A stretch of DNA of 64,000 bases. It comes from a virus. Shown here piece by piece: positions 52-63,882 of this stretch. The stretch is from UHGV virus genome UHGV-0279745; one strand, given 5' to 3'. The notes under the pieces were generated by a model, which was given only the letters and a program-made list of their open reading frames with translations, was not told where the DNA came from and made no database searches. How positions within the stretch are numbered: position 1 is the first letter of the stretch; every line of letters begins with the position of its first letter. Both the position numbers and the translations under genes were made by a program.

Positions 52-333
52 ATGAAGCGTGAAACAATTGTATTTTGTCAAAACGGTGATGTAAAACAGT
101 ACCGGGGTAAGAAGTTAATTCGTACGTTAGATTATCGCGAAGCAAAACGTTTCGTTGAAGAGTGTGCGTGGTTAATGCATTACGAAGGGAACTATCGTGC
201 CATCTTAGAAGCGCCGCGTTTAGAACGTGCAGTTGCGCAGATGGCAATAGGTAATCCTAAGAACTGTTACCTAGCACGCAAACCAAAATACCTACAGCGT
301 GTCTCGCTAGGCAGTTTTATTGCGGGATTTTAA
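52..333 (+). CDS. hypothetical protein (93 aa)
   Basis: ORF with GGGAGA RBS upstream of ATG; followed by conserved promoter-like element. Confidence 0.6.
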   Translation: MKRETIVFCQNGDVKQYRGKKLIRTLDYREAKRFVEECAWLMHYEGNYRAILEAPRLERAVAQMAIGNPKNCYLARKPKYLQRVSLGSFIAGF

Positions 334-334
334 T

Positions 335-385
335 AAAAATAATTTCAGATATATATTACTTAGGTGAGAGTACAAAAGCTCTCAC
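335..385 (+). promoter_or_regulatory. conserved promoter-like motif (aaaaataatttcagatatatattac) followed by 7-bp-stem hairpin gtgagag/ctctcac (364-385)
   Basis: Near-identical ~75-bp copy at 36581-36655; core motif also at 32201-32226; lies ~30 nt upstream of an RBS and ATG. Confidence 0.5.
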
Positions 386-415
386 TTAACGAAAACCATT
401 TTAGGAGAATATACC

Positions 416-910
416 ATGAACTTCACTAGACTTGATTACACTAACGAATTAGTCGACAAAGAAAAATACAAATTCACAGTTGACTTGGGTTATGGGCTGT
501 GGGACGTAGAAAAAGACGTCCTATACAAAGAATTCCGTGAGCAGTTCGGTGCTTTGTTCTGCGCAGGTTTCCGTAGAAACTCTATCGATGTCGGTTATAG
601 CGCAACACCGTATACCGACGAAGAAATGTTTAAGCTGATAACAGAGATTGTCGGAACACGTGTGGCTAAACGTTTTAATTATTCTAACGAACTTGTTTCG
701 AAAGACCATTACAAATTCACCGTTAGATTACACGTACCCCTCACCGAAGAAGATAAGAATACACTCTATAAAGCCCTACAAACCGAATTCGGTAAAACAC
801 TCAAAGTCGGGTTCCGTAGTCGTAGTATCGACATCGGTATTAGCGTAGACTTGTGCAGTGACGATGACCTTTACGAATTAGTTTCGGAAGTTATCAGAAA
901 ACATCTCTAA
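416..910 (+). CDS. hypothetical protein with internal tandem duplication (164 aa)
   Basis: RBS AGGAG before ATG; two ~80-aa repeats (YTNELVDKEKYKFTVDL...GFRRNSIDVGYS / YSNELVSKDHYKFTVRL...GFRSRSIDIGIS). Confidence 0.7.
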   Translation: MNFTRLDYTNELVDKEKYKFTVDLGYGLWDVEKDVLYKEFREQFGALFCAGFRRNSIDVGYSATPYTDEEMFKLITEIVGTRVAKRFNYSNELVSKDHYKFTVRLHVPLTEEDKNTLYKALQTEFGKTLKVGFRSRSIDIGISVDLCSDDDLYELVSEVIRKHL

Positions 911-6871: not shown

Positions 6872-6955
6872 CTATTTCTAAGGTGTTTATACCTTATTTT
6901 GTATAAAGACGCTTAGAATGCGTTCTACGCACGATTTGACGGTTAAAATGAATAT

Positions 6956-6994
6956 ACCCTACTCCTTATCGGGAGTAGGGTAGTTTTTATTATT
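6956..6994. terminator. bidirectional terminator between convergent genes
   Basis: accctactcc-ttatcg-ggagtagggt followed by tttttattatt. Confidence 0.6.
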
Positions 6995-8745: not shown

Positions 8746-8759
8746 GAAAAAATAAAAAT

Positions 8760-8800
8760 ACCTACCTCCTATTACGGGAGGTAGGTATACTATTTTTTTT
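8760..8800. terminator. bidirectional terminator (A-rich upstream, T-run downstream)
   Basis: acctacctcc-loop-ggaggtaggt flanked by aaaaataaaaat and tattttttttc; separates convergent genes. Confidence 0.7.
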
Positions 8801-9481: not shown

Positions 9482-10029
9482 TCATCGTCTCCTTTAATCA
9501 ACCCTAATTCGATTAACAGTTCAAAATCGATATGACGGAATCTTGTGTCGAAGTCCGATTCCCAATCGATACGGATACCCTGGCATTCTTCTGGCGTTAG
9601 CTCAGGAAAAATCACGCTATTAAATTTCTCCCGCTCATCGTAAAACCCATCAATCGGTGAGTTCGGGTTACGTGTTGCGAAGATAGTAATGCCGGGGAAG
9701 GACAATGCCAACACAGTGATAGATTCTGCGCTGGGTTCGCTTAAAGAGCGGCGTAGAAACGCAATTTTGTGACGTGGGAAATCCAATACCCGTTCTTCAA
9801 ACCCTGGGTTACGTTTTTCAATTTCCGCGACCGACAGGTCAGTAAGTTCGGTGCAGTACATTGGGATGATTACAGTCACACCGTGACGAATCAGCAAGCG
9901 TTTTACGTCATCGGTGAAATCTTCACCGTTAATCACCACATAACAACCAAATAGCTTACTGTTTTCCAGAAACTTATCCAGAAGTCGAATTCTACGCTTC
10001 GTAATATTGTTGATCAGAATTGGTTTCAT
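9457..10029 (-). CDS. hypothetical protein (190 aa) in rSAM/Cys-peptide operon
   Basis: ORF overlapping both neighbours (translational coupling). Confidence 0.65.
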   Translation of the reverse strand: MKPILINNITKRRIRLLDKFLENSKLFGCYVVINGEDFTDDVKRLLIRHGVTVIIPMYCTELTDLSVAEIEKRNPGFEERVLDFPRHKIAFLRRSLSEPSAESITVLALSFPGITIFATRNPNSPIDGFYDEREKFNSVIFPELTPEECQGIRIDWESDFDTRFRHIDFELLIELGLIKGDDECLLLVKA

Positions 10030-11314
10030 CTTTGGCTTCTCTTAATAATTTTTCCTTTTGGGCACGTTCACGAACACAGCGTGGGCAATAACACATGCTC
10101 GTGTCGTGGAACGCTTTTGCTGACGTCGTACCCATCTTCTGTTTCCAGTATTCCGCCACCATCAGTTTCGCTGTCGTCCAGCCACACTGACGTCGTTCAG
10201 CGTGATACGCTTTACGGTCTTCTAACGTTCCTTCCCCGTTCTCGTAAGAAGCCGCCGCGCAGCTACCACAAGCGTGTTTCATCGGACAACCTAAACAGGT
10301 CTCTGGGTAGTTGGTATATTGCGTTTGAATCTCTTCTAACAATTTACCGTTGTCCAGACTGACGAATTCCCGACCTACCAACTCAAACACCGCAGAACGC
10401 GACGTTACCGTTGACATAAAGCGGTTACAGCCAAAGATCTTACGGTCAAATCCTAAGCACGTCATGTGCGTTAACGTCCCACAGAACGGACGTAAGCGTT
10501 CTGGGTTCAGCCGTACGGTGTCATTATACAGTAACTGGTCACGCCAGTTCGGTTCCCAAATCGTATCGAAATCCAACCCTTCTGGAATGATGTGCGATAA
10601 GATATTACGTGGGTTGGTGTGTAATCCTTTCTCAACCCAGTAATCTATCACATCCATCATCTGTAAAGCGATTGACGTCGCCATGCTACGTGGCATAACG
10701 TCTTCGAAAGTTACGTTTCCAGAAATTGTCCCACCGCCAGTAATGTCAATTAATGACTTCATCCCCGCAGCATAGAACGGCAGCGTTTCTAACGTAAAGG
10801 TTGCTTTTACGCCGAGCTCTGCAATGCCAACCTCTTTTAAGTAGTTATAGCCACGTACTGCGGCTTCGTAAGAACCCTGGCGTGTTGTTGTGAATATACG
10901 ATAACGGTCATGGGATTCAGGTAAGCCGTCAATCGAAACCCCAACCGAAAGTTTGTCTTTCCAACGTTCTACAATCTCACGGTTCAACGGACGATCTAAC
11001 AGCGTTCCGTTCGTGGAGATACTAAACATAAACGGTCGGTTGTGTTCTTTACACAACTGCTCAGCGGTTTCAAACGCAGCCAGCAGCAGTTTAGGTTGCA
11101 TGAACGGTTCACCACCGATAATGTCAATAATAACTTCAACATTCGGTTCGTTTTTATCACGTTCAAAACAGGCGTGTAAGAAATCAACAATATCTGCCGC
11201 TTTGTTGTTACGCGGGTACTTACGTTCGTAACAATACTCGCAGTCCAGGTTACACGAAAGGTTGGTTACGATCTGATACGTTAACTGCTTAGGGAATTCA
11301 TTTACTTGACTCAT
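9992..11314 (-). CDS. radical SAM enzyme with C-terminal SPASM/twitch-like Cys cluster (440 aa)
   Basis: CNLDCEYC (CxxxCxxC) near N-terminus, GGEP motif, C-terminal CLGCPMKHACGSC plus further Cys pairs; GAGGGG RBS. Confidence 0.8.
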   Translation of the reverse strand: MSQVNEFPKQLTYQIVTNLSCNLDCEYCYERKYPRNNKAADIVDFLHACFERDKNEPNVEVIIDIIGGEPFMQPKLLLAAFETAEQLCKEHNRPFMFSISTNGTLLDRPLNREIVERWKDKLSVGVSIDGLPESHDRYRIFTTTRQGSYEAAVRGYNYLKEVGIAELGVKATFTLETLPFYAAGMKSLIDITGGGTISGNVTFEDVMPRSMATSIALQMMDVIDYWVEKGLHTNPRNILSHIIPEGLDFDTIWEPNWRDQLLYNDTVRLNPERLRPFCGTLTHMTCLGFDRKIFGCNRFMSTVTSRSAVFELVGREFVSLDNGKLLEEIQTQYTNYPETCLGCPMKHACGSCAAASYENGEGTLEDRKAYHAERRQCGWTTAKLMVAEYWKQKMGTTSAKAFHDTSMCYCPRCVRERAQKEKLLREAKDETNSDQQYYEA

Positions 11315-15600: not shown

Positions 15601-18600
15601 TTAAGATGTAAACATAAGATTGAACTGGAGCTTATCGATATCGCGGGTTTGTGCTGGGTTAACCGCATCGTACGTGGTTGCCACGTAGACCGTTAATGTC
15701 CCGTCAGCAAACGAAGTTTTCACCGGTGGCGTAGTCCCTGTCTGTCCATCAGTTACAATGACGACAGGTTGAGCCGGGAGTTGATGGAACTGACCCTTAA
15801 CCGCTTTATACACCAAACCAGATTGCGCTGATAACTCCGTGTCGGTATAGACGATAAACGGCGTGTCGATATCTGTCTGTTTAATGACAGTGTTCGTCTC
15901 AACGTCAATCAGCTGAACAGCACCGAACTTCGTACGGTAGCTATCGTATTCATTTTTTGGAATGACAAACGTAGCATGTACACGGACTTCTTCGGCGGGC
16001 TTAAATCCGGCGTGTTCTTTTTCCAGATAGCTGTTAGCAGTTAACGTTACTGTCTGTTCAGTCATCGTACCACCAGACTGGTTTAACCCGTAACGAACTT
16101 GGGTTATACCTGTCGGAGCCGCAAGCCTGATTTTTAGTCTACGGTTAGCGGTGCCGGGATTACCAGGCACTCTAACACGCAGGCTCAAAGCCAGATATGC
16201 ATTCGTACCGGTAGTCGGTTTCGTATACGCACCCAACCACTTCATATTCGCGGTTGCCGCTTGACTGTTCTCAGAAGCAGTAGCCGCTACAACGTTTGCA
16301 GCGACCGCTTTCTGCCAGAACTGGTCAGCGCAGTTCTCATACGCTACTCTACCGATACTTTTATAACCTGCATAGGTTTCCTGTATCGGCAGATTGGGGC
16401 GTGTTGTGATCCCGCTCAACGCATTCCATCTCTGACCATCGACATACCCCGCACCATTGCTCGCGGATGCCGTGGGGGCTTTCAGCGGTTGGTTAACCAA
16501 GGTTTGGAGTGGACCCGTTTTTCGATCGTACGCCGCTGCAACGTCGTGCTGATCTCTAACAGCAGCGTGTTCTTCTAATTCACGAACCCTGCCTAACCGT
16601 TTCACTTTATCGATGTTAATAGCAACTATGCGCTTTTTATCGGTTGTAACTGTACCAACAAATAATCGCGAAGTCGTATCCGGCAGCTTTTCCAGCCCGA
16701 TCCGATATTGAGCTTTCGAACCTACAAGAGCAGCATGAACATAGAACGTCTGGTTAGCATGGTTTTCTGGGAATTCGTTGCTTAAATCCACCGACCACGT
16801 CGGTAATGTATAGCTATTACTACCGAAATCTAACCTGACCTCTTCCGTCAAGTATAGAATCCAACCTTCCGCAGTCTCCACGCCTGCAATAATAACCGCC
16901 TGCCCCGCTGTTGAGAATGTGGTATCATTAACGAACTCTTCGACTGTATATGCGTTACCTGAACAGAAAACGCGGTCAGCTTTAGAGAAAATTCGTGCCA
17001 TCTTGTCCCAATTACCCGCACCCATGTAACAACCAGATTCTGGGTTGTGGGCAGGAGCCATCTGACGCAACTGTGACTTACCGGGAACGCGAGTCCAACC
17101 CGACCCAGGGTTAAAGGTATACTTCGCAGCGTAACCCAAAGCATTTAGGTCCCCGATATTCCGTATTGTCAGCGTATAAGGCAACCATAGACCGAAGTTT
17201 ACACCGTCGGCAGAAGCAAAAATTGGCTGGCCTACACGTCGCGTTTTATTGCCCGCTTCTTCCCTCAGAGACTGATAACTTAAGCCGTAATCAAGGTCTA
17301 AGAACCAATCAACGAGTTTGAAAGTAGCCGAGTTAAAACGTAGATAACCGTTTTCTTTGGTCGGACTTACCATGAAGTAATAGATGTCGAGAACTCGACG
17401 TCCGTTACTCAGGGTTTTCATACATGAGACTTGTAATAAGTCGAACTCACAAACAGTGTTAATGCCTAGCAACCAGAGCGCAAACAACGCGTTGCCGCTT
17501 TGGTGTGCTGCACTGATGCGTTCGTTCGCGTAACCGTTTGCTTGACCAGATGGTGCACCGTCGACAATCATCCTAATCATCTTCTGGCGATCCGCTTCCT
17601 CTAACGTCAGCCGTTCTGATGACAGGGCAAAGTTACCGTAGATGTTTCGATATGGGAAGGTTTCCGCTTTCGTCAAATACCAACCGTTTAATTGCCCGTG
17701 ACGCTCCTCAGGAGTCATGCAAGCAGCCATACAGCTTAACTGTTCGTAAAGGGTTGCATCAACTTCTCGACGGTTGTTGTTCGGACCATAACCACTATAT
17801 CCGGGAACGTCATAAGGTTTACTTGGGTCAACTTCTACTTCGATCGTATAGCGGTTGCGCGGATTGGATAGCCAAACCTTATTCGAACCACCAATACCGA
17901 CAGGATGAGAAAGACCGATTGTATAGATAGAACCGCGACCTTTATCCCATGTAAATGTTGCTTCGCCTGAGGTATTGTTTGGGTTATCATAACGCAGATA
18001 ATCAAAAAACTCTTTGCCTTGCGTACTTTTAATAGTAACGTTCGGCATCTGGTCCGCATCGTTAATCTGCCAGCAGGAAAGCATCATTCCCGAGACATTA
18101 GGTTTAGCATACGTCGCAAAACAACGATTGTTTGCTTGGCCGCCACCCCACTTACGACTGGTTTCTACAGTTGAGCCATCCGCGAACGTCAGTGTGGTAG
18201 TATCAACCTTAATGGGGAAACGTTCGGCACCCTCTAACGTAACTCTGCCCGTTAACGTATCGATTGTGAAACTTGTTGACCATTGACGGAAATTAATCGT
18301 CGAACCGTCGGCAGCCGCAAACCACACGGTGGGTACATGGTTCACACGAATCACGCTGTCGCGCACCGCACAAGCATGGCTACATTCTGGACCGTGAACA
18401 AAACTGTGACCGATTGTCCATTTAGCCCGTGCCTCTGGCGGGTAATACGTAAAGAACTGACCAGTCTGCGACTCTTCGGTCTTCTGACCAATTCGTAAAC
18501 AGAGGTTATCTCCGAATTGCCCCATTTCTCCGGTTAGGGTTACACGTTCAAATTCTAACTCAGTATTGTTAGTCAAATCGGCTTTACGTAAACGCCATGC

Positions 18601-20784
18601 CGCCACGGCATAAGCAGAGTTATTTACCGTGGAACGAAGAAGATAAACGTGGTCGTCAACTAACACAACATCGTCGGCTTCTGGCCAAGGATTCCAGGTT
18701 TGTTCCACAGTACCGCTGGGGTTGCCATTACGGTACTTAGGCATTGTAACACGACACACCACCGTGTGTTTACTGTGGTCCATCGAACCATTGAACAACA
18801 CCAAATAACGGTTATTGTCAGAACCCAGACAAATAATCGCTTCCTGACCACCGATCAATATCGCTTTTAAGGTCACCCCAGGGTATTTACTCATCCCAAC
18901 AGGATGGTATTTCACCGAAGTTTGCTGAGGGTTCACAAACACATTCGACGTATTGATATCAGCATAGCCGTAGTAAATAGCCTCTGTACCAGGTACACCA
19001 TTAGAAGCATTACGTAACGAATAAACTTTACCTTGTTGGAATCCTACAACGCCTTTCTGATAGGACTGGTTCTTTGTAAAACCTGAATAATTACCGAGCG
19101 CCGGAATGGGTAAGAAGTTTTTGTTACCGAACTTCGCCCCACCGACAGTCCACGCAGGTAAGATGGTATTCAGTTTATCAGAAACTTTCTTGATCTCTTT
19201 TGCGAACAACCACCCTTGACGCGAAGTGGCAGCTTTATCGTTCGTGGTATCAATCGCATCCCACAACTGTAAGATACCATCCACAGTCGCACTGCCAATC
19301 GGGACATTATCCAAATCGGCGGTAGTGTGCGTGTGCTCCTTCACACTTTTATTTTTCAGCACATTCGCTAACGCTTTTGTTACCGGTTTAGCGATCGGCA
19401 TGGTGTTATCCATCTTATCGATACCGAAATCGGTTTTCGTTAAGGTTAACACCATTTTATCGCCCGTCTTAACAAACCCTTTACCGTTAACCGTATAGTC
19501 ATCGTCAACGTACAGGTCCAAGCGGTCTTTTAATTCGGTCACCGCCTTTTGGGAAATAGCAGTGCCTAGTGCTACGGATGTTGCGATATTCGTAATCGAA
19601 AACACCCCATAAACCGACTCGGTTGCTGTGGGAATATTCGCGTTCAACGTTAGCGGATTAGACTGCTTCGCCGTACCGTACGGTTTTACGCTGTCTGATG
19701 GTTTGAAATAGGCATTCGCTTCAAGTAACGTTACAGACGTCAGGTACATGTTCACCATTTCTGGTGTAACCAAATACACAGAGTTGTAAACCGGCGCTAA
19801 TACATCCTGCTCTGACCCAGAGTGTACCCAAAGCGTATTCAGTCCCGCACTAAATTCAACCGCTAAACCCGATTCGTTGTTGTCCTGGTCCGCTTTAATC
19901 ACTAACGGTTGCGGTGAGGTAATTAACCACTTATCACCACGGATACTGATAATGTGCCCGCCTGCGGTTTTAAACGTCAGTTCGTTACCGTTCGTGCTCC
20001 CCCATCGACCGTAAACAGTGCCGAGGGCTTCACCCATTAACTGATCAACGTCTGACTGCTCAATACCCGCCGAACCCATCAGCGTAGCCAACTCGTCAAT
20101 CGTCAGTCCAAACGCTTTTGTCGCGTCAACAGCACGTCCCAAAACCGGAAGGGCACCAACGTCAGTGGTCGTATACTGGTGTGCGTTAGGATTAAGGTGG
20201 TGTTGGTATAACTCCTCGTCGAAAACCTTTTTACCGTTCTCGTAAATCAGGTTAGTGACTTCGGTAAACGCTGCATCTAACTCTGTTGAACGTTGAACGA
20301 TTTTCTTACGGATGTCGTTTAACGCTTTAACAACCTCATCCCTCAGAATAGCTTCTTCTAAGTTAGCAGGAGGATCGATGGGTTGAATAACTGGCGCATA
20401 CGCCATTAACTCTGACCAGTCCACGTTACGTGGGTCTTTCAGGTCAGTACGAACTAAGAACTTTCCGATTTCAGATTGCGGTACACGATACTGGCGTGCT
20501 ACCCCTAAAATCTCATATTCGATTTCTGTTGCGGTCAGCAACATGAACCCGCCGTAGATCTGATCTTGCTCAGCTTCTGCGAGTTCTTTAAAGTAATAGC
20601 CTAAATAGTAGTCCAACCCCTCAATCAGAGTACGACGTCCGTTAGGCGCGGTATCGTCGGCTACTGTGAGTTTTAATCCGATACGATAAAAAGGTCCTTC
20701 AGGCGGAATGACCACATTAAATCGGTTAGGGTACGTCGCTGTGCTTAACGTACCGTTAAACTGCGCCGCGTCTTCTCTCGGCAT
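15601..20784 (-). CDS. long tail fibre protein (1727 aa)
   Basis: Shared N-terminal fibre domain (PEGPFY...GLDYYL); very large late gene; AGGAG RBS. Confidence 0.85.
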   Translation of the reverse strand: MPREDAAQFNGTLSTATYPNRFNVVIPPEGPFYRIGLKLTVADDTAPNGRRTLIEGLDYYLGYYFKELAEAEQDQIYGGFMLLTATEIEYEILGVARQYRVPQSEIGKFLVRTDLKDPRNVDWSELMAYAPVIQPIDPPANLEEAILRDEVVKALNDIRKKIVQRSTELDAAFTEVTNLIYENGKKVFDEELYQHHLNPNAHQYTTTDVGALPVLGRAVDATKAFGLTIDELATLMGSAGIEQSDVDQLMGEALGTVYGRWGSTNGNELTFKTAGGHIISIRGDKWLITSPQPLVIKADQDNNESGLAVEFSAGLNTLWVHSGSEQDVLAPVYNSVYLVTPEMVNMYLTSVTLLEANAYFKPSDSVKPYGTAKQSNPLTLNANIPTATESVYGVFSITNIATSVALGTAISQKAVTELKDRLDLYVDDDYTVNGKGFVKTGDKMVLTLTKTDFGIDKMDNTMPIAKPVTKALANVLKNKSVKEHTHTTADLDNVPIGSATVDGILQLWDAIDTTNDKAATSRQGWLFAKEIKKVSDKLNTILPAWTVGGAKFGNKNFLPIPALGNYSGFTKNQSYQKGVVGFQQGKVYSLRNASNGVPGTEAIYYGYADINTSNVFVNPQQTSVKYHPVGMSKYPGVTLKAILIGGQEAIICLGSDNNRYLVLFNGSMDHSKHTVVCRVTMPKYRNGNPSGTVEQTWNPWPEADDVVLVDDHVYLLRSTVNNSAYAVAAWRLRKADLTNNTELEFERVTLTGEMGQFGDNLCLRIGQKTEESQTGQFFTYYPPEARAKWTIGHSFVHGPECSHACAVRDSVIRVNHVPTVWFAAADGSTINFRQWSTSFTIDTLTGRVTLEGAERFPIKVDTTTLTFADGSTVETSRKWGGGQANNRCFATYAKPNVSGMMLSCWQINDADQMPNVTIKSTQGKEFFDYLRYDNPNNTSGEATFTWDKGRGSIYTIGLSHPVGIGGSNKVWLSNPRNRYTIEVEVDPSKPYDVPGYSGYGPNNNRREVDATLYEQLSCMAACMTPEERHGQLNGWYLTKAETFPYRNIYGNFALSSERLTLEEADRQKMIRMIVDGAPSGQANGYANERISAAHQSGNALFALWLLGINTVCEFDLLQVSCMKTLSNGRRVLDIYYFMVSPTKENGYLRFNSATFKLVDWFLDLDYGLSYQSLREEAGNKTRRVGQPIFASADGVNFGLWLPYTLTIRNIGDLNALGYAAKYTFNPGSGWTRVPGKSQLRQMAPAHNPESGCYMGAGNWDKMARIFSKADRVFCSGNAYTVEEFVNDTTFSTAGQAVIIAGVETAEGWILYLTEEVRLDFGSNSYTLPTWSVDLSNEFPENHANQTFYVHAALVGSKAQYRIGLEKLPDTTSRLFVGTVTTDKKRIVAINIDKVKRLGRVRELEEHAAVRDQHDVAAAYDRKTGPLQTLVNQPLKAPTASASNGAGYVDGQRWNALSGITTRPNLPIQETYAGYKSIGRVAYENCADQFWQKAVAANVVAATASENSQAATANMKWLGAYTKPTTGTNAYLALSLRVRVPGNPGTANRRLKIRLAAPTGITQVRYGLNQSGGTMTEQTVTLTANSYLEKEHAGFKPAEEVRVHATFVIPKNEYDSYRTKFGAVQLIDVETNTVIKQTDIDTPFIVYTDTELSAQSGLVYKAVKGQFHQLPAQPVVIVTDGQTGTTPPVKTSFADGTLTVYVATTYDAVNPAQTRDIDKLQFNLMFTS

Positions 20785-20794
20785 CGTAAAGACT

Positions 20795-20840
20795 CCTACT
20801 TTTAAATAAAATGGATACCCCTCCCCGTTACAGGGAGGGG
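20795..20840 (-). terminator. terminator between tail-fibre genes (minus-strand orientation)
   Basis: cccctccc-loop-gggagggg hairpin with U-rich tract on the minus-strand downstream side. Confidence 0.5.
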
Positions 20841-20878
20841 TTACCTACGGACACACAACTGCCCGCAGGCAGCCTGTC

Positions 20879-23800
20879 CTAAGTACGATCCCCTAACTGC
20901 TTCCCGTTAAGTTCTCGTTTCAGTACAGCCAAAATCCACTTCCACGCTTTACTCGTGATGTGGTACGGATTGCGTTTCTCCATTAAGAACTGACTTTCGC
21001 CGCTACGGAGTTCGAAGCTCTGCGCATTGAGTTGGTCTTGGCGAACACCTTTCTCGTCAGTGACATCTAACGAACAGGTAAAGTTAAGCTCGTAGCCTTC
21101 AGGATTATTACCCGGTGGTTCTAAGACAATATAAATGTCCTGCCCTACACGTAGGTCCTTTGGCGTAAGGGTAACTGCTTTACCTGTGTCCGCGCTGGTC
21201 GAAAGCGCAAACGGCACGCTATCGATAGCTGATACATACGCGTCCTTCCCAGCATCACCGATAATCACCTTACCCGGCCAGTTACACTTCACCGTTCCTG
21301 TCACTTTTGCAACACGGTACTGCTGTTTATCAGCACCTTGTGCAAAGCGTAAAATGAGTTTATGCCGATACCGGTTTGCGGCAGCTTTGGATGTACTCCA
21401 CTCATTGTTCCAGGATGCATGAAGTTCACCTTTCTTGGCCATCAAAGCACCACGAGACAGCTTACGTGGGAAGAATTGTGCCGGAAGTTGCCCTTCGTGG
21501 GAAATCGCTACACTCCCTTGTCCGGTTGGAAGTGCTATTGTTTCCGTAGGGCAATAATTTAACTCGTACACGTGTGTTGTAGGATCGATCAATTTCTGAT
21601 AGTAATCGCCGTCCTTACTGTCCGCTAACCAACCAACGGAAGAGTCCGTATACGATTCAAACAGTGAACGTAAATAGTGATACTTATCGATATCGATGTT
21701 ACCCGTTTTTGGATCGATCAGGGCATGGTTAATAGTGAGGAAACACTTCTCACTCAAACCATTAAACGCCAGCCCCACTCCGTCGCCGGTAAAATAGTCT
21801 ACCAGGTCAAATGGAAGCGTCATTTCTATTTGTCGCAAGTTGATAGTCGTTGAACCAAACTGCGAAAAAGATAGCGCTAAACGAAGTACACGAGTATTAA
21901 CATTATAACGATAACGAATCATCCCACGCGGCGCATGGTTCGCGGAGATCTTATCACCGTTTGGACCCCACCCAATTAAATCGAGTATTTCGGCGTTTGC
22001 TACTTCACCATTAAACAAAACGTCTTTAGTCGTGATTTCAACTGACGTTTCCCTTCCGGCATCCATCAACATCGAACCGTTATTCAACTCGAAGCTCTTG
22101 TGCCAAACTTCAGAAGTCGAACCAGCACCTACACCCACCTTACAAGTTTTACTAGTAAGGTTAATACGCACATAACGGCGTCCCACTGTACCACCCTGCG
22201 AGCTTGCGCACAAAATAAGATCAGGTGCCGCAGACAGTGCCTTGGTCCCTCCAATGTCATCAACATCGAAAACGAATGAGCCTTCGAACGTTGGTGCGTT
22301 ATTTTCCTTCGGGTTAAATGGCGTGAACCAACAATAAGGCGTCGCGCCCTCGGTTGAGAAAATCAACTCTAAGTCAGATTTAACATTTAATCCGTGGGAA
22401 TAAGAAAAGAGACCGCGACTTAAGGTACAAAGCGTTCCACCGCTTCCGCTACCTAAGGTTTTTCGATATATTAAAGCGCGGGGTTCAGCAATAGCACGGT
22501 TTAATAACGGCAACCGTGGGTTATCCGTTAACGTCCAGTCGACAGAACTGAGTCCGTGTGCTTTACGAGCGTCGATGTGCTCACTAACCTCGGTACTTTT
22601 CCCGAAATCAAACGTAGTTTCAAAACTCACGGTTTTATTCGAGTAAGATTCACCGGCAACAATATCAACGTAGCCGATATAACCGCGCTCAGGGTCAACT
22701 GCAATACTCTGAATTGGCTCAGTACGCGAATACAGAGAGCCTGTGAGCATGTTAACGTACAGATAATGACGAATGCCTACGTGTGTTGTAACGAACTCTT
22801 GGAGAAGCTCTACGTGCGTTTCAGGGCCACTGAAATAAACGGGGTAGTCACCGTCGTAAATTTCGAATTGCACCGCTGCGGATTTAGCCGTGTCGCTACA
22901 CTCAGCTTTAACCGCCACGGTGTAGTTTTCAACGTCTGCTGATGTTTCATACACTGCAACGAGCGGAGACTGGCCTGTGGCTGCCTGGATACCGTTAATG
23001 TAAACTGTAACCGGGCCACCCCCTGCGGCATAAACCCAAAGCTTCGGCTGGCGTGCTCTTACCCGCGTTTTGGCCAACACAGTAACAACTGACTGGTCAC
23101 CCATCTGTGAGGCAGTTTTACCTACCGGAACAGATTGGAAACCCATTAGTGGTGGTTCTTCAATACCTGTCCAGTTAATGCCCTTACCAGCACTCACTTT
23201 CCCCGTAGGCCAAGTCGTCTCAATTTGGTTGTTCGGTGAGAACCAGTTAAACATCGGCGTAGTTTGCAGGTCAATCGAACCTGTAACGGCGCTATCAGCT
23301 TTCGCACCGTTCAGCAAATAGAAATACTTCAAATCTTGAACGGAGATTGCCGTACCCTGACTATTAAAACGCCAGTCTGCACCTTTTACCGCAGCAAAAT
23401 CCGTTACCGACCCTTCTTTCGCGTTTGCAATCGCCGCAGCAACCACATCTAAACGCGCCGAAAGTTCTTTTAAGATGTTCGGTACCACTGCACGGTTTTC
23501 AACCAAACCGTTCTGGTTAGTTGCGTAACGACCGATACCGTAAACGGATTGCGAGGCTTTATAAATGCCTAGTTCCGACCAATCGTGATGGTGACCCGCA
23601 TCCGCTAAGCCGCTAAGCGCCGCATTTAACTCGGTAGACAACGGCTTGTCAACGTCTGCGGTGTTATCCGCTTGCCCTAACCCCAGATCAGCTTTCGTGA
23701 TTGTCCTGGAGCCGTCGTTCATCGGCTTACCGTTAATCATGGTCGTTTTAGCCACATACCCCGATAGGTCAGTCGAGTATGGTGCTAACGACGCCGGTGT

Positions 23801-25081
23801 TGCAGCAACCCCAGTCGTTTCTGTACCTTTACCTGTTTTAAGTTTAGCGACGCCTTTTTCGGCGGTTGTCGCTTTTGTTGGGTCGATAGTCCCGACAATG
23901 GGATCGGCGCGAGAACCTTTACCGGTAAAGCTAATCCCATTACGACCTTCAATGTACACCTTCGAATCGTCAGGGTCGCCACCGCCACCAGAACCCGCAT
24001 CTGGATCTTGTTGGTATTCCATCAACGCCGTGGTAGTCAGTAACGGGTTACCGTTCAGGGTGAGTTTGTTCATCCCTAAAGCATCGCCTGTTGACTCGAT
24101 GCGTAATGTGTTTTTACCGGCACGCCAATTAATGTAACGTCCTGCACCTGTGCCTTCCAGATGTCCTACCGCTAATACCACAGAACCGTTGGATTTTAAC
24201 GTAAAACCATCGTTAGCAAAAATGATTTCGGACTCACCGTTTTTCGAACGGAACTGTGCGCGGTTTCCTGACAGCGTACAGTTAAACACGCCCCGTACTT
24301 CCGAAGAAATCCAGTGAGAGATATACGTGTCGATAACTGACTGGGGTAAACGAAACGCTTTCAGCTCATCCGTCAGTGCTTTCAACTTTAACCCGTAGGC
24401 CATAAAGGTGTCGGGCGTTTTCAAGTTAACAGGATGCGCGTTAATCTGCGCGGATGTGGTTTCGTGCGGGTTCTTCGCTGCGATATGTGCTGGGTAGTTA
24501 AATGCTTCGATTTCTTTACCCAACGCAGTCACTAACGCTTTAACTTCAGCTAATTTGTCTTTAATTAGCTGGTTAGCGTCGTCGGTTTTCAATTCAATAT
24601 CGTGAACTGCCGACGCTAAATATTTTTTGTTCAGCAAATCCGCCCAGGACGTTGCTGCTGGCGTCGCTGGATATAACGATGGTCTACCGTCTAATAACAA
24701 CCAGTCAGCACTGACTGGGTTATTCAAATATTTCACCAGTTCATCGAGAATATCAACAAACGGGTCGTAGAACGTACCGCCGAGCATTTGTCCTTCAAAG
24801 GTTACGATACCCTTGATGGATGGGTTGATAAGGTGTACCCCACAATACACGTTGGCTGCTACCGAGTCATCCAGTTCCGTCAGCTGATATTGCAGTTCGT
24901 AGTCCACCCCACGACTCAGTGGGGTGGTTGAACCTGGTTGTCTGACGACCAAATCTTCAAAGAACGGGCGGTGGTCTAAAATCACCACCCGATCGTTGTT
25001 ATTTTCTGACCCGATGATACGCTCCTCTAAGAAGTGATTCTCGGCTTTCGTCCCCCGAGGATCGTAAGGATACGCTTTCAT
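20879..25081 (-). CDS. long tail fibre protein (~1400 aa)
   Basis: ATG at 25081 with AAGGAG RBS; N-terminal DHRPFF...GVDYEL domain. Confidence 0.85.
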   Translation of the reverse strand: MKAYPYDPRGTKAENHFLEERIIGSENNNDRVVILDHRPFFEDLVVRQPGSTTPLSRGVDYELQYQLTELDDSVAANVYCGVHLINPSIKGIVTFEGQMLGGTFYDPFVDILDELVKYLNNPVSADWLLLDGRPSLYPATPAATSWADLLNKKYLASAVHDIELKTDDANQLIKDKLAEVKALVTALGKEIEAFNYPAHIAAKNPHETTSAQINAHPVNLKTPDTFMAYGLKLKALTDELKAFRLPQSVIDTYISHWISSEVRGVFNCTLSGNRAQFRSKNGESEIIFANDGFTLKSNGSVVLAVGHLEGTGAGRYINWRAGKNTLRIESTGDALGMNKLTLNGNPLLTTTALMEYQQDPDAGSGGGGDPDDSKVYIEGRNGISFTGKGSRADPIVGTIDPTKATTAEKGVAKLKTGKGTETTGVAATPASLAPYSTDLSGYVAKTTMINGKPMNDGSRTITKADLGLGQADNTADVDKPLSTELNAALSGLADAGHHHDWSELGIYKASQSVYGIGRYATNQNGLVENRAVVPNILKELSARLDVVAAAIANAKEGSVTDFAAVKGADWRFNSQGTAISVQDLKYFYLLNGAKADSAVTGSIDLQTTPMFNWFSPNNQIETTWPTGKVSAGKGINWTGIEEPPLMGFQSVPVGKTASQMGDQSVVTVLAKTRVRARQPKLWVYAAGGGPVTVYINGIQAATGQSPLVAVYETSADVENYTVAVKAECSDTAKSAAVQFEIYDGDYPVYFSGPETHVELLQEFVTTHVGIRHYLYVNMLTGSLYSRTEPIQSIAVDPERGYIGYVDIVAGESYSNKTVSFETTFDFGKSTEVSEHIDARKAHGLSSVDWTLTDNPRLPLLNRAIAEPRALIYRKTLGSGSGGTLCTLSRGLFSYSHGLNVKSDLELIFSTEGATPYCWFTPFNPKENNAPTFEGSFVFDVDDIGGTKALSAAPDLILCASSQGGTVGRRYVRINLTSKTCKVGVGAGSTSEVWHKSFELNNGSMLMDAGRETSVEITTKDVLFNGEVANAEILDLIGWGPNGDKISANHAPRGMIRYRYNVNTRVLRLALSFSQFGSTTINLRQIEMTLPFDLVDYFTGDGVGLAFNGLSEKCFLTINHALIDPKTGNIDIDKYHYLRSLFESYTDSSVGWLADSKDGDYYQKLIDPTTHVYELNYCPTETIALPTGQGSVAISHEGQLPAQFFPRKLSRGALMAKKGELHASWNNEWSTSKAAANRYRHKLILRFAQGADKQQYRVAKVTGTVKCNWPGKVIIGDAGKDAYVSAIDSVPFALSTSADTGKAVTLTPKDLRVGQDIYIVLEPPGNNPEGYELNFTCSLDVTDEKGVRQDQLNAQSFELRSGESQFLMEKRNPYHITSKAWKWILAVLKRELNGKQLGDRT

Positions 25082-25094
25082 CAAAAAATTCTCC

Positions 25095-32180: not shown

Positions 32181-32200
32181 CGGGACGTTCCTTAGATCGG

Positions 32201-32260
32201 AATTGATTTCAGATATATATTACTTAAGTGAATAGGGGCTGAACTGGCACTTCAGCCCCT
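32201..32260 (+). promoter_or_regulatory. third copy of the promoter-like core motif (atttcagatatatattactta) followed by 10-bp-stem hairpin (32234-32260)
   Basis: Shares core with the elements at 335 and 36581; hairpin aggggctgaa/ttcagcccct. Confidence 0.45.
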
Positions 32261-32313
32261 ACGGACACGTTTCATTCGAAACGGATTGATTAAACCATTT
32301 GGGGAGACAGATC

Positions 32314-32457: not shown

Positions 32458-32601
32458 GGGGCATTATGTATACGGATATAAATAGCGGAGGTATACGTAG
32501 TATACCGACATACTCTTCCCAGAGGAACGTAGTGACTTCCTTATACCTCTTTTACAATCCATAATAATAGACTCCCCTTTATTGAGATTAGCGAGTAAAT
32601 C

Positions 32602-36534: not shown

Positions 36535-36567
36535 GGTGGGGGTAAACCCCCCACCTTTTATTTTTTT
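36535..36567 (+). terminator. rho-independent terminator
   Basis: ggtggggg-taaa-cccccacc followed by T-run. Confidence 0.7.
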
Positions 36568-36580
36568 GTTCGTTAATATT

Positions 36581-36631
36581 AAAAATAATTTCAGATATAT
36601 ATTACCTAGGTGAGAGTACAAAAGCTCTCAC
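36581..36631 (+). promoter_or_regulatory. second copy of promoter-like motif plus gtgagag/ctctcac hairpin
   Basis: About 95 percent identical to 335-410 over ~75 bp. Confidence 0.5.
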
Positions 36632-44737: not shown

Positions 44738-45235
44738 ATGTTAACGGTACGTAAAGAATCTGAAATTGGTAACGATCTTTTTAATGCGCCCGAAGACTAT
44801 AAAGTCGTTACCATTAATTGCGTAGGAGCGATGGGTCGCGGTATTGCACTCGCGTGTCGTGAACGCTACCCCAACCTTTACCAGGATTATCGTAAGCGGT
44901 GTCGTGAAAACGAAATTAAGATTGGAAACGTTTACGTTTACTCTGACGAAAAGTGTATCTTGCTCCCCACGAAAACCCATTGGCGCTTAAAGTCCCAGGT
45001 TTCTTATGTTACTGCGGGCATTACCGCACTAGCGGATTGTGCTGAGGATCTGGATACCAGCGTTGCTATCCCTCCACTGGGAATGGCAAACGGGTGGTTA
45101 GATTCCTGGGAAAGACAAGAAATCTTTTTGTGGCTTTACAAAAAACTTGAATCAAGGAGACAACACTACACGTTATACTTACCTGATAAGTTGTACCAAG
45201 AAGCAGAGTCATTAATTCCAAACTCTTTTAAATAG
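44738..45235 (+). CDS. macro-domain-like protein (~165 aa); start uncertain
   Basis: VVTINCVGAMGRGIALA resembles the macro-domain VNAAN...GGGVA motif; AIPPLGMANGWL resembles the second macro motif. Confidence 0.55.
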   Translation: MLTVRKESEIGNDLFNAPEDYKVVTINCVGAMGRGIALACRERYPNLYQDYRKRCRENEIKIGNVYVYSDEKCILLPTKTHWRLKSQVSYVTAGITALADCAEDLDTSVAIPPLGMANGWLDSWERQEIFLWLYKKLESRRQHYTLYLPDKLYQEAESLIPNSFK

Positions 45236-45335
45236 ATATTATCATTAGGGCACACAACAAAGGAGTATTAGCTGTCCGCGCCGTCATTTCGTCTTACGGA
45301 ATACGGAAATGTATAAATCCAACTGGAGAAACAAA

Positions 45336-54068: not shown

Positions 54069-54730
54069 TCGTTTATAGTGAGGTCTTGTCAAAAGCCCCC
54101 CGGTTTTTACAAACTCACTTTATGTATAACGCACGGCAGTATTGGGGCTTTAAAGCCCCTTACTCCGAAGATTGGGAAGTTGTGGAAAAGTTAGCATTTG
54201 TGTTTTCTCTTTCGTTGTTGTGGGAGATCATTGCACTATACAACGCGGGTTGTGATATCCCGGAGAACGGCTTTTTCCAACAACACCTATTCCAAAAATT
54301 CACAGCATCGGTAGAAAATCATGAAGTGCGCAAGGAGTGTATCGGCTACGCAGAGCATTCTGAAGAATTGAGAAAGATTTCCAAATTAGTTATCACGCGG
54401 ACATGGGCTGAATTCGAAACTTACCCCGAAAAAATAATTTGGTTTAATCGTGAACAGTTTATTAAAGAGGCAGTCAGTCAACATCCCGTTCGACTAATCG
54501 TGTTAAAGCCGTCAGATCTCGCCTTACGCCACATCTATTCGTCTCCAGAGGAAATCGTTTTTTCCTCTGGAACAACAGATTATGGTATTTTTAAACAAGG
54601 CGATTCTTGGATTCTTCCACACGATTTAGACGGGTATTTGCTCAGTAGCGATCAAATACATTCGGGTTATGACTCACAGGTGAAGGAGTTTACAGTCGAT
54701 CCTTTTTTCGCTAAAAATATTCTTAGATAG
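54062..54730 (+). CDS. hypothetical protein (222 aa)
   Basis: AAGGAGC RBS; overlaps upstream stop. Confidence 0.65.
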   Translation: MLIVYSEVLSKAPRFLQTHFMYNARQYWGFKAPYSEDWEVVEKLAFVFSLSLLWEIIALYNAGCDIPENGFFQQHLFQKFTASVENHEVRKECIGYAEHSEELRKISKLVITRTWAEFETYPEKIIWFNREQFIKEAVSQHPVRLIVLKPSDLALRHIYSSPEEIVFSSGTTDYGIFKQGDSWILPHDLDGYLLSSDQIHSGYDSQVKEFTVDPFFAKNILR

Positions 54731-54766
54731 ATATTATCCAGGTGTAACACCATTGGAGTTATTAAA

Positions 54767-63811: not shown

Positions 63812-63882
63812 TCTTACTACCTCAATTTCAAAAAGAAGTCAGACAGATATTATCTACGTGAGACATTCTTTAGGAGTGAATT

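What the first reader, a model, noticed from the sequence alone, without database searches (positions are those of the whole stretch)
335..415. Repeated promoter-like element with an immediately downstream 5' hairpin (copy 1)
The segment aaaaataatttcagatatatattac(t/c)taggtgagagtacaaaagctctcactta...ccattttaggag occurs at 335-410 and again at 36581-36655 with only a few mismatches. The core atttcagatatatattactta recurs at 32201-32226, there followed by a different hairpin. In each case the element lies just upstream of a plus-strand gene start, and the hairpin would sit at or near the 5' end of the transcript. This looks like a phage promoter class coupled to a 5' stem-loop (mRNA stabiliser, RNase III site or regulator-binding site). 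It does not match a canonical sigma70 -35/-10 pair well, so it may depend on a phage-modified polymerase or phage factor.
Basis: seen in the sequence. Interest (0 to 1): 0.45.

Follow-up and report, generated by a model that had tools for sequence, protein, structure and literature searches.

The report
Jumbo-phage early promoter with 5' hairpin
The repeated element is the early promoter that phiKZ-type giant phages use with their own injected RNA polymerase, and in this enterobacterial branch the transcript it makes begins with a conserved small hairpin that probably protects the early messages from decay.

Summary
The 18-mer ATTTCAGATATATATTAC occurs exactly three times, all on the + strand (0.05 expected). 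Copies 1 and 2 share about 78 nt with 2 mismatches and 1 indel. The window comes from a phiKZ-related jumbo phage (closest phiEaH2, then SPN3US-like). At DNA level only this element matches other phage records.

The element fits the published early-promoter consensus read by the virion RNA polymerase: phiKZ TATATTAC; 201phi2-1 ...TTTRARR_BTATATTACDWHDGTG; AR9 box-(6N)-G+1. That rule predicts starts at G366, G32230 and G36612.

In 53 unique related copies the predicted transcript folds into a hairpin. In 35 of them it starts at +1. The arms covary (native -5.2 versus chimeric -2.6 kcal/mol, p=9e-8). The sense strand folds better than the antisense (p=0.002).

Seven phiKZ promoters and the weaker GATAGATATTATC variants in the window mostly lack the hairpin. 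I found no description of it in the papers I could read.

The promoter identity is well supported. A 5'-end-protecting role against RppH and RNase E is inferred. No transcription start site has been mapped in this clade.

The parts
331..366 (+). Early (vRNAP-type) promoter copy 1. It has an A/T-rich -35..-24 block, TTTCAG at -23..-18, the TATATTAC box at 352-359, TTAGGT, and the predicted start G366.
   Evidence: Exact 18-mer. Matches the 201phi2-1, OBP, N1M2 and phiKZ consensus and the AR9 box-(6N)-G+1 rule. Consensus of 53 related copies.
366..383 (+). 5'-terminal stem-loop of the copy 1 transcript: GAGAGU-ACAAAA-GCUCUC, 6 bp including one U-G pair, with no unpaired 5' nucleotide. The DNA dyad extends over 360-389.
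   Evidence: Orthologous cassettes keep the stem while the loop changes (ACGAAA, TCAGTT, TCAGCT).
395..418 (+). Conserved ribosome-binding module ACCATTTTAGGAG (AGGAG at 403-407) and the start codon (416-418) of a 164-aa hypothetical gene (416-910).
   Evidence: No Pfam or PHROG family.
36535..36568 (+). Intrinsic terminator (GGTGGGGG-TAAAC-CCCCCACC plus a T-run) that closes the upstream operon just before promoter copy 2.
   Evidence: sequence.
36577..36612 (+). Early promoter copy 2, with the TATATTAC box at 36598-36605 and the predicted start G36612.
36612..36629 (+). 5'-terminal stem-loop of the copy 2 transcript, identical to that of copy 1. The DNA dyad covers 36607-36634. It is followed by ACCATTTTAGGAG (36640-36652) and ATG 36661 of a 123-aa gene (36661-37032, phrog_27024, function unknown).
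32195..32230 (+). Early promoter copy 3, at the junction between the minus-strand structural block and a plus-strand block. The TATATTAC box is at 32216-32223 and the predicted start is G32230. Its upstream A/T block is weaker.
32233..32261 (+). Copy 3 leader hairpin 1: 11 bp (UAGGGGCUGAA/UUCAGCCCCUA), 7-nt loop, 3 unpaired 5' nucleotides.
   Evidence: whole 84-nt leader -28.6 kcal/mol, z -4.4.
32268..32283 (+). Copy 3 leader hairpin 2 (CGUUUC-AUUC-GAAACG). It is followed by ACCATTTGGGGAG (32294-32306) and ATG 32314 of a 47-aa ORF (32314-32457).
54721..54744 (+). Variant promoter TCTTAGATAGATATTATCCAGGTG, with predicted start G54744, a 23-nt leader without a significant hairpin, and gene 54767-55507.
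63837..63860 (+). Variant promoter AGTCAGACAGATATTATCTACGTG, with predicted start G63860, a 23-nt leader without a significant hairpin, and ATG 63883.
45226..45249 (+). Weak candidate variant (TTTTAAATAGATATTATCATTAGG, 4 mismatches, no GTG) upstream of an SLT-domain transglycosylase gene (45309-46034).
   Evidence: The same variant is conserved in relative locus L021.

Best explanation
Each copy is an early-gene expression cassette of a phiKZ-related (chimallivirus-type) jumbo phage. The first module, about 36 bp long, is A/T block, TTTCAG, ATATATATTAC, YTAGGTG. It is the promoter read by the phage's own multisubunit virion RNA polymerase, which is injected with the DNA. That polymerase needs neither the host polymerase nor new protein synthesis. 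Initiation is predicted at the G seven nucleotides after TATATTAC (G366, G32230, G36612). The first 18-32 nt of the transcript then fold into a stem-loop that begins at +1 (copies 1 and 2) or +4 (copy 3). The most likely role of this 5'-terminal stem-loop is to hide the 5' end from RppH and from 5'-end-dependent RNase E attack. That would lengthen the life of early messages that carry long (50-84 nt) leaders. A conserved ribosome-binding module (ACCATTT-GGAG) follows. What is shown here: the repeat, the match to the promoter consensus, the gene context, and the conservation, covariation and strand bias of the hairpin. What is inferred: the start-site position (by homology), the identity of the polymerase (by homology), and the stabilising role (by analogy). 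Confidence by step: promoter identity about 0.9; hairpin as a selected RNA feature about 0.75; 5'-end protection as its main role about 0.45.
For: Promoter identity:
- The window is a jumbo phage whose virion protein is 84% identical to phiEaH2, 78% to SPN3US-like phages and about 27% to phiKZ-like phages.
- At DNA level only this element matches phage records, with several places per genome in SPN3US-like and Erwinia jumbo phages.
- The element fits published early-promoter consensus sequences: phiKZ TATATTAC, 201phi2-1 TTAWTAVAA_HYWTTTRARR_BTATATTACDWHDGTG, N1M2/OBP TTTCARRYAKATATTATYWAAGTG (PMC7058600), and AR9 AAATATATATTAT-(6N)-G+1.
- In phiKZ and phiR1-37 the start site lies 6 nt after the box (PMC5312081).
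- Such motifs mark vRNAP promoters in all RNAP-encoding jumbo phages (PMC7598289).
- All 3 exact and 3 variant sites are on the + strand in spacers just upstream of + genes. Copy 2 follows a terminator.
- In SPN3US the motif sits before a run of small hypothetical genes.

Hairpin:
- In 53 unique copies from IMG/VR and the window, the mean MFE of +1..+32 is -5.2 kcal/mol. A control window at +23..+54 of the same leaders gives -1.5.
- 35 of 53 have no unpaired 5' nucleotide.
- Swapping 3' halves between copies raises the MFE to -2.6 (Wilcoxon p=8.6e-8).
- The sense strand folds better than the antisense in 37 copies and worse in 14 (p=0.002).
- Stems differ with compensation: GAGAGU/GCUCUC, GAUAGA/UCUAUC, GAGAUUAC/GUAAUCUC, GAGCAUUGA/UCAAUGCUU, GAUUAGU/ACUAAUC, GAUAC/GUAUC.
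- In 17 of 34 copies the helix stops exactly at predicted +1.

Role:
- RppH and RNase E need single-stranded 5' ends, which explains the known stabilising effect of 5' structures (PMC3997798).
- phiKZ instead inhibits the degradosome with gp37/Dip (PMC4980113). Dip homologues were found only in Pseudomonas phages.
- phiKZ promoters mostly lack the hairpin.
Against: - No start site has been mapped for this phage or its close relatives, and a shift of a few nucleotides would change the '0 unpaired nucleotides' result.
- In the window's own copies 1 and 2 the DNA dyad continues 5-6 bp upstream of predicted +1 (360-389). An RNA that starts at G366 cannot use that extension.
- The first four stem positions (GAGA) are conserved as sequence, so covariation is carried only by the inner pairs. 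The covariance-model alignment gave only 2 pairs with double changes.
- The 53 copies are not phylogenetically independent.
- In many Erwinia-phage copies the hairpin is followed by UUUU, which suggests a transcriptional (pause or attenuation) role rather than stability.
- The variant promoters and phiKZ do without the hairpin, so it is not essential to the promoter class.
- No virion RNA polymerase gene was identified inside this window. Its presence is inferred from relatives.
Confidence: 0.5

Rival explanations
1. The promoter assignment is right, but the hairpin acts on transcription rather than on decay. It would be a promoter-proximal pause or attenuator, or a read-through checkpoint, for the virion polymerase or for stray host polymerase.
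For: In many Erwinia and SPN3US-type copies the 3' arm runs straight into UUU(U), for example GAGAUUC-UAUAUU-GAAUCUUUUC, which is terminator-like geometry at about +25. ONT-cappable-seq of 201phi2-1 found eight short RNAs that arise by premature termination in 5' UTRs (PMC11512511).
Against: The window's own hairpins are not followed by a T-run (CUCUCACUUAACG; CCCCUACGGAC), and the terminator scan did not call them. The stems are short and AU-rich. A pause or terminator hairpin would not need to start exactly at +1, yet 35 of 53 do.
Confidence: 0.2
2. The dyad works as DNA. It would be a hairpin or cruciform in the initially melted region that forms part of promoter recognition or escape by the virion polymerase, or an operator for an early shut-off protein.
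For: In copies 1 and 2 and their orthologues the dyad is 11-12 bp and spans -6 to +24, beyond the predicted RNA 5' end. Phage N4 virion polymerase is a precedent for hairpin-form promoters (PMC4496689 appeared; the details are from my own knowledge).
Against: The extension upstream of +1 is confined to one group of related cassettes, and 17 of 34 helices stop at +1. Sense-strand folding is better than antisense, which indicates tolerance of G-U pairs. Arms covary instead of being conserved and loops range from 3 to 11 nt, so a sequence-specific dyad operator is unlikely. Variant promoters in the same window and phiKZ promoters lack the dyad.
Confidence: 0.12
3. The 5' stem-loop is a recognition tag on early messages. 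A phage or host protein would bind it to route mRNA out of the early infection vesicle, favour its translation, or shield it from an RNA-targeting defence.
For: The GAGA start plus a helix is conserved on many unrelated early genes. Chimalliviruses transcribe early genes inside a vesicle and have RNA-binding export candidates such as ChmC (PMC13282480).
Against: Loop sequences and inner stem bases are not conserved. Nothing links the element to any protein. phiKZ, where the vesicle biology was defined, mostly lacks the hairpin.
Confidence: 0.1
4. The hairpin has no function of its own. Copies 1 and 2 look alike because one promoter-leader cassette was recently copied or gene-converted, and similar sequences elsewhere are inherited.
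For: Copies 1 and 2 are nearly identical over about 78 nt in front of unrelated genes. The RBS module also recurs alone at 57105.
Against: Orthologous cassettes in related contigs change the loop and the closing pair yet keep pairing. Distant clades use different stem sequences at the same position. Chimeras fold significantly worse than native sequences.
Confidence: 0.05
5. The element is an ordinary sigma70 promoter used by host RNA polymerase.
For: TATATT is 5/6 of a -10 hexamer, and copy 1 has a 9/12 match (TTAATA-16-TATATT at 330-357).
Against: Copies 2 and 3 have no -35 hexamer at legal spacing, and sigma70-like sites are not enriched. Conservation extends over 36 bp, including TTTCAG at -23 and GTG at the start, which sigma70 does not read. 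The element matches the vRNAP consensus of phages that are rifampicin-independent (PMC7598289, PMC13282480).
Confidence: 0.03

Closest known systems
Early (virion RNA polymerase) promoters of phiKZ-related jumbo phages: phiKZ, 201phi2-1, OBP, N1M2, EL, AR9, phiR1-37
   Same: The TATATTAC/ATATTAT box lies about -10. A G start lies 6 nt after the box. TTTCA-type (-20) and A/T-rich (-30) blocks lie upstream. There are many copies per genome in front of operons of small hypothetical genes. There is no sigma70 architecture.
   Different: This branch (SPN3US, phiEaH2, Erwinia Agrican-like, CR5-like and the window phage) has an almost invariant 17-mer TTTCAGATATATATTAC and a conserved GAGA start that forms a +1 hairpin. 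Seven phiKZ promoters examined mostly lack one. No experimental start site or temporal data exist for this branch.
5'-terminal stabilising stem-loops of bacterial and phage mRNAs (ompA, papA; the T7 gene 10 leader GGGAGACCACAACGGUUUCCC, from my own knowledge)
   Same: A short helix starts at or within a few nucleotides of the 5' triphosphate. Its sequence is free but its pairing is kept. It lies well upstream of the Shine-Dalgarno sequence. The T7 leader is also made by a phage polymerase and also starts with a purine-rich G-GAGA-type sequence.
   Different: A stabilising effect is not demonstrated here. Some clade members add a U-tract. The polymerase is a multisubunit virion enzyme, not a T7-type enzyme.
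Phage N4 virion-polymerase hairpin promoters
   Same: An injected virion polymerase transcribes early genes, and a short inverted repeat is tightly coupled to the promoter.
   Different: In N4 the hairpin is a DNA structure with a 3-nt loop upstream of the start site, and it is the recognition element of a single-subunit enzyme (own knowledge; PMC4496689 was listed but not read). Here the dyad is downstream of or across +1, loops are 3-11 nt, and the promoter works without it in variants.
T4-type PeSL cassettes (promoter-early stem-loop modules; own knowledge)
   Same: These are short repeated regulatory cassettes. They combine an early promoter with a stem-loop, lie in front of unrelated small early genes, and are apparently moved by recombination.
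   Different: In PeSLs the stem-loop is a terminator upstream of a sigma70-type early promoter. Here it is in the transcript, downstream of a phage-polymerase promoter.

Membership tests
vRNAP early promoters of phiKZ-related jumbo phages | Highly conserved AT-rich box of about 10 nt (TATATTAC / ATATTAT), centred near -10 | tested here: met
   TATATTAC lies at 352-359, 32216-32223 and 36598-36605. Published consensus sequences are in PMC7058600 and PMC7598289.
vRNAP early promoters of phiKZ-related jumbo phages | Conserved initiating purine (G) 6 nt downstream of the box | tested here: met
   The box is followed by YTARGT-G in all three copies. G is invariant in the 53 related copies selected for an [AG]TG start. 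The rule comes from AR9, phiKZ and phiR1-37. The match is at sequence level only; the real start site is not mapped.
vRNAP early promoters of phiKZ-related jumbo phages | Conserved -20 (TTTCA/TTTRA) and A/T-rich -30 blocks | tested here: met
   TTTCAG lies at -23..-18, and GATTAAAAA-like sequence lies at -35..-27 in the consensus of 53 copies. This agrees with 201phi2-1, OBP and N1M2. Copy 3 has a weak -30 block.
vRNAP early promoters of phiKZ-related jumbo phages | Multiple copies per genome, co-oriented with and just upstream of operons of mostly hypothetical genes | tested here: met
   All six sites in the window are on the + strand, upstream of + genes. Relatives have 4-5 exact copies per genome. 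Downstream genes have no Pfam family.
vRNAP early promoters of phiKZ-related jumbo phages | The phage packages a multisubunit virion RNA polymerase | not tested
   No RNAP gene was found among the 19 window ORFs scanned. The relative SPN3US has virion beta/beta' fragments according to PMC5312081. Lineage membership was shown only through a virion protein.
vRNAP early promoters of phiKZ-related jumbo phages | Transcripts appear immediately after infection and are resistant to rifampicin and chloramphenicol | not testable with these tools
   This needs infection experiments.
5'-terminal stabilising stem-loops | The helix begins within about 0-3 nt of the transcript 5' end | tested here: met
   Copies 1 and 2 have 0 unpaired nucleotides and copy 3 has 3. 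Of the related copies, 35 of 53 have 0 and 42 of 53 have at most 3. This depends on the predicted start site.
5'-terminal stabilising stem-loops | Pairing is maintained by compensatory change while the sequence drifts | tested here: met
   The chimera test gave p=8.6e-8, and distinct stems are listed. On the covariance-model alignment 95% of cells pair versus 88% in shuffles, but only 2 of 7 pairs show double changes.
5'-terminal stabilising stem-loops | Lengthens mRNA half-life in an RppH / RNase E 5'-sensor-dependent way | not testable with these tools
   The mechanistic basis is in PMC3997798. No data exist for this element.
N4-type hairpin promoters | DNA hairpin with a 3-nt loop upstream of the start site, serving as the recognition element | tested here: not met
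   The dyad lies at -6..+24 or +1..+18, loops are 3-11 nt, and variants lack it.
Intrinsic terminators / attenuators | GC-rich stem immediately followed by a U-tract | tested here: not met
   The scans did not call the three window hairpins, and their tails are ACUUAACG and ACGGACAC. A U-tract is present in many Erwinia-clade copies, so the result is inconclusive for those.
RNase III processing sites | Roughly two helical turns (about 20 bp) of double-stranded RNA (own knowledge) | tested here: not met
   Stems are 6 bp (copies 1, 2) and 11 bp (copy 3).
Sigma70 promoters | -35 and -10 hexamers spaced 16-18 bp apart | tested here: not met
   Only copy 1 has a 9/12 match, copies 2 and 3 have none, and there is no enrichment over shuffles.
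Any Rfam RNA family | Score at or above the family gathering threshold | tested here: not met
   There were no matches in the whole window.

The most novel reading that the evidence does not exclude
The +1 stem-loop may be an integral and so far undescribed module of early gene expression in the enterobacterial branch of nucleus-forming jumbo phages. These phages have no detectable Dip-type degradosome inhibitor. They may instead build RNase E/RppH resistance into every strong early transcript, or tag transcripts made inside the early infection vesicle. If so, promoter, initially transcribed sequence and 5' RNA structure evolve as one unit with the virion polymerase.
Probability: 0.25. Interest if true: 0.6.

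Novelty: new variant of a known kind. Interest (0 to 1): 0.45.

Why it matters
The promoter itself is a known class. Recognising it lets one mark early transcription units in this unannotated jumbo phage and its metagenomic relatives without any experiment.

The part that goes beyond what I could find described is the conserved, covarying hairpin that begins at the first transcribed nucleotide in one whole branch of the family and is mostly missing in phiKZ. It gives a simple, testable handle on how injected-polymerase transcripts survive in the host cytoplasm. The test is to disrupt and then restore the stem, in rppH or rne hosts.

It may also explain differences between Pseudomonas and enterobacterial chimalliviruses. 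In addition, the element is a compact promoter-leader cassette that could be useful for engineering these phages.

Tried and rejected
- RNAalifold on an ungapped MAFFT alignment of 24 copies found only a spurious 4-bp helix inside the promoter, because loop lengths differ.
- A first seed alignment was broken by one divergent sequence.
- The covariance model R1, built from 8 Erwinia-type copies, aligned 50 matches but left many gaps (206 of 329 cells filled). Its covariation counts are therefore weak. I replaced it with alignment-free folding, chimera and strand tests.
- The correlation between leader length and hairpin stability (rho -0.50) was set aside as evidence, because a hairpin itself adds about 20 nt to a leader.
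- Swapping 3' flanks to test the upstream extension of the dyad was uninformative, because -6..-1 is nearly invariant.
- Experimental phiKZ start-site tables could not be checked. No supplements are held for PMC8244752 or PMC10914365, and Ceyssens et al. 2014 is not held.
- A literature search for the exact motif found nothing relevant, and no SPN3US transcript map was found.
- The copy 3 leader and small ORF have no DNA homologue in the phage collection.
- Rfam gave nothing.
- Rejected readings: sigma70 promoter, RNase III site, intrinsic terminator of the upstream gene, dyad operator.

Full report
**1. The observation**

The three sites read as described. ATTTCAGATATATATTAC is present exactly at 342-359, 32206-32223 and 36588-36605, all on the + strand. 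No other site in 64 kb comes within 3 mismatches. Dinucleotide shuffles give 0.05 matches, and none of 100 reached three.

Copies 1 and 2 align from about -33 to the Shine-Dalgarno sequence with two substitutions and one 1-nt indel, then diverge at the start codon. The proteins behind them are unrelated. What is repeated is therefore a regulatory cassette of about 78 nt, not a gene duplication. Copy 3 shares the promoter only as far as +2.

**2. What the window is**

- GC content is 40-49%.
- Three giant paralogous virion proteins lie on the minus strand, and the window also encodes SbcC-like, RNase H-like and UvsX-like proteins.
- A 457-aa virion protein is 84% identical to Erwinia phage phiEaH2, 78% to SPN3US-like Salmonella phages, 57% to Cronobacter phage CR5, and 23-29% to phiKZ, 201phi2-1 and OBP.
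- The window is therefore from a phiKZ-related jumbo phage of the enterobacterial branch.
- At DNA level the phage collection matches nothing in the first 3 kb except positions 332-386, which is the element itself.
- A sensitive search with 300-420 finds the element in 76 jumbo-phage records, usually at 3-6 places each and mostly in unannotated spacers.

**3. Identity of the element**

Published early-promoter consensus sequences for this phage family are:
- phiKZ: TATATTAC
- 201phi2-1: TTAWTAVAA_HYWTTTRARR_BTATATTACDWHDGTG
- OBP and N1M2...TTTCARRYAKATATTATYWAAGTG(WA) (PMC7058600)
- AR9: AAATATATATTAT-(6N)-G+1

In phiKZ and phiR1-37 the start site also lies 6 nt after the box (PMC5312081).

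A review states that such a motif precedes early operons in every RNAP-encoding jumbo phage, is centred near -10, and defines promoters of the virion polymerase (PMC7598289). In 201phi2-1 the mapped starts fall within 2 nt of the last base of the motif, and the -10, -20 and -30 regions are conserved (PMC11512511).

The window element TTTCAGATATATATTAC-YTARGT-G fits position by position, and the pattern TTTCARRYATATATTAYNNNNGTG matches all three copies with no mismatch. The consensus of 53 related copies adds a GATTAAAAA-like block at -35..-27. By the 6N rule the starts are G366, G32230 and G36612.

Sigma70-type architecture is absent. Only copy 1 has a 9/12 match, and such sites are not enriched.

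**4. Context**

Relaxed scans add three weaker sites of a second flavour, GATAGATATTATC, at 54721, 63837 and, doubtfully, 45226. All six sites are on the + strand, in spacers directly upstream of + genes.
- Copy 3 sits at the switch from the minus-strand structural block to a plus-strand block.
- Copy 2 follows a canonical terminator at 36535-36555.
- The genes behind the strong copies are hypothetical and have no Pfam family.
- In SPN3US the homologous element precedes seven small hypothetical genes.

**5. The hairpin in the window**

RNA starting at G366 or G36612 folds as GAGAGU-ACAAAA-GCUCUC. The stem-loop itself is worth -8.3 kcal/mol and leaves no unpaired 5' nucleotide. The whole leaders fold at -8.8 and -10.4 kcal/mol, z -2.5 and -2.9.

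The 84-nt copy 3 leader has an 11-bp hairpin from +4 and a second 6-bp hairpin (-28.6 kcal/mol, z -4.4).

The three variant leaders, two of them only 23 nt long, have no significant structure.

**6. The hairpin elsewhere**

An exact scan of IMG/VR for TTTCAGATATATATTAC gave 84 loci, most in contigs of 205-246 kb with 4-5 copies each. Inspection showed that almost every jumbo-phage copy continues GTGAGA... and then carries a complementary arm.

Quantified on 53-55 unique copies with a [AG]TG start:
- The mean MFE of -2..+33 is -5.9, against -2.2 for a window 50 nt downstream; the mean z against shuffles is -1.9.
- For RNA from +1, the mean is -5.2, against -1.5 for a control window at +23..+54 of the same leaders.
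- 35 of 53 have no unpaired 5' nucleotide, and 42 of 53 have at most 3.
- Chimeras that join the 5' half of one copy to the 3' half of another fold at -2.6 (native lower in 43 of 53; Wilcoxon p=8.6e-8).
- The sense strand folds better than the antisense in 37 copies and worse in 14 (p=0.002), as expected if G-U pairs are tolerated, that is, if the structure is RNA.

Distinct stems include GAGAGU/GCUCUC, GAGAGU/ACUCUC, GAUAGA/UCUAUC, GAGAUUAC/GUAAUCUC, GAGAUUC/GAAUCUU, GAGCAUUGA/UCAAUGCUU, GAGAGUU/AACUCUC, GAUUAGU/ACUAAUC and GAUAC/GUAUC. Loops are 3-11 nt and have no common sequence. Orthologues of copy 1 in related contigs keep the stem while the loop changes (ACAAAA, ACGAAA, TCAGTT, TCAGCT), and the closing U-G becomes U-A.

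A covariance model built from eight copies aligned 50 matches. On that alignment 95% of cells pair versus 88% in shuffles (0 of 500 shuffles as high). Only the inner pairs vary, because GAGA is conserved as sequence.

**7. Limits of the hairpin**

- Seven TATATTAC promoters in the first 50 kb of phiKZ give a mean of -2.6 kcal/mol. Only one, upstream of the nuclear shell gene, folds strongly.
- Forty-four variant promoters in the fetched loci average -3.2, and a quarter fold at -5 or below.
- The hairpin is therefore an accessory of the strong TTTCAGATATATATTAC class in the SPN3US, phiEaH2, Erwinia and CR5 branch. It is not a requirement of the promoter family.

**8. DNA or RNA?**

In copies 1 and 2 and their close orthologues the dyad is longer as DNA: 360-389, 12 bp with two G-T pairs. 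It reaches 5-6 bp upstream of predicted +1.

Across 34 copies with a 5'-terminal helix, 17 stop exactly at +1. Only 7 extend by 5 or 6 bp, and six of those are the window's own cassettes or their orthologues.

Together with the strand bias, this favours an RNA role. It still leaves an unexplained feature in the window's own copies. Either the start is a few nucleotides further upstream here, or the extension is incidental to an ACTTAA flank, or DNA structure contributes.

**9. Mechanism**

A helix that occupies the first transcribed nucleotides cannot help promoter escape, because it forms only after about 30 nt have been made (inference from the size of the RNA-DNA hybrid and the exit channel). 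It can deny RppH and the RNase E 5' sensor the single-stranded end that both need. This is the accepted explanation for the stabilising effect of 5' structures (PMC3997798).

The fixed position at +1, free loop sequence, short stems and distance from the Shine-Dalgarno sequence all fit that role. RNase III would need about 20 bp (own knowledge).

phiKZ handles the degradosome with gp37/Dip (PMC4980113). tblastn finds Dip only in 45 Pseudomonas phage records. This is suggestive of an alternative solution in the enterobacterial branch, but it is not evidence for one.

The U-tract that follows the hairpin in many Erwinia-phage copies keeps a pause or attenuation role alive for those. The window's copies lack it.

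**10. Is it known?**

The promoter class is known. I found no description of a conserved 5' hairpin at these promoters in:
- the jumbo-phage polymerase review
- the phiKZ dRNA-seq paper
- the ONT-cappable-seq papers on phiKZ and 201phi2-1
- a 2026 review
- searches for the motif itself

Rfam has no match. Ceyssens et al. 2014, Thomas et al. 2008 and Lavysh et al. 2016 could not be read, so prior mention cannot be excluded.

**11. Verdict**

- Confidence that these are virion-polymerase early promoters: about 0.9.
- Confidence that the +1 hairpin is a selected RNA feature: about 0.75.
- Confidence that its main job is 5'-end protection: about 0.45.

This is a new variant of a known kind, of moderate interest.

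Noticed in passing
window 6955-6982, 48085-48106, 48699-48724 (related: 8758-8788): A repeated, nearly palindromic terminator hairpin TACCCTACTCC-loop-GGAGTAGGGTA has T-runs on both sides. It lies at operon ends and at convergent junctions, so it looks like a conserved, bidirectional phage terminator motif. It is comparable in kind to the conserved terminator motifs reported for phiKZ and 201phi2-1.
   Followed up: partly
window 54721-54744, 63837-63860, 45226-45249; loci L005, L006, L020, L029, L052 and others: A second promoter flavour, (Y)RGATAGATATTATC-NNNN-GTG, is closer to the OBP/N1M2/EL type. It coexists with the TTTCAGATATATATTAC class in the same genomes. It typically has a 23-35 nt leader and no 5' hairpin. 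Whether it marks a different strength or timing class is unknown.
   Followed up: partly
window 395-407, 32294-32306, 36640-36652, 57105-57117 (shorter form at 54749-54757): A ribosome-binding module ACCATTT(T)(A/G)GGAG recurs. At 57105 it appears as ACCATTTTAGGAGAATAAACCATG, almost identical to the copy 1 version but without any promoter motif upstream. Relatives have GACCAT or GACTAT a few nucleotides before the Shine-Dalgarno sequence. It could be a translation-initiation enhancer or a recombination scar.
   Followed up: partly
window 32230-32601: The copy 3 promoter drives an 84-nt leader with two hairpins, then only a 47-aa ORF (32314-32457), then 144 nt without an ORF before the next gene. 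The stretch has no DNA homologue in the phage collection. It could encode a small early protein or a non-coding RNA.
   Followed up: partly
loci L004 (from 4517), L011 (from 3201), L048 (from 6835), from CR5-like contigs: Behind the same promoter these contigs share a leader of about 80 nt with two hairpins. The second hairpin covaries: CCCCA...TGGGG, CCCCG...CGGGG, CCCTA...TAGGG. This looks like a conserved structured 5' UTR of one early gene.
   Followed up: no
window 15601-29417 (minus strand): Three consecutive giant genes (1727, 1401 and 1440 aa) are mutual paralogues. They fall in PHROGs 7449, 8078 and 7557, which are annotated as virion structural proteins, and they cross-match each other's families.
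   Followed up: no
window 9992-11314 (minus strand): A 440-aa radical SAM domain protein (phrog_1802, E 2e-114) sits within the virion-gene block. This is an unusual enzyme to find among structural genes.
   Followed up: no
L085 (phiKZ) 45568-45620: Of the seven phiKZ early promoters examined, only the one upstream of the nuclear shell protein gene (gp054) has a strong 5'-terminal hairpin (-8.8 kcal/mol, starting at +1). The two at 2665 and 4516 share an identical leader of about 30 nt.
   Followed up: no
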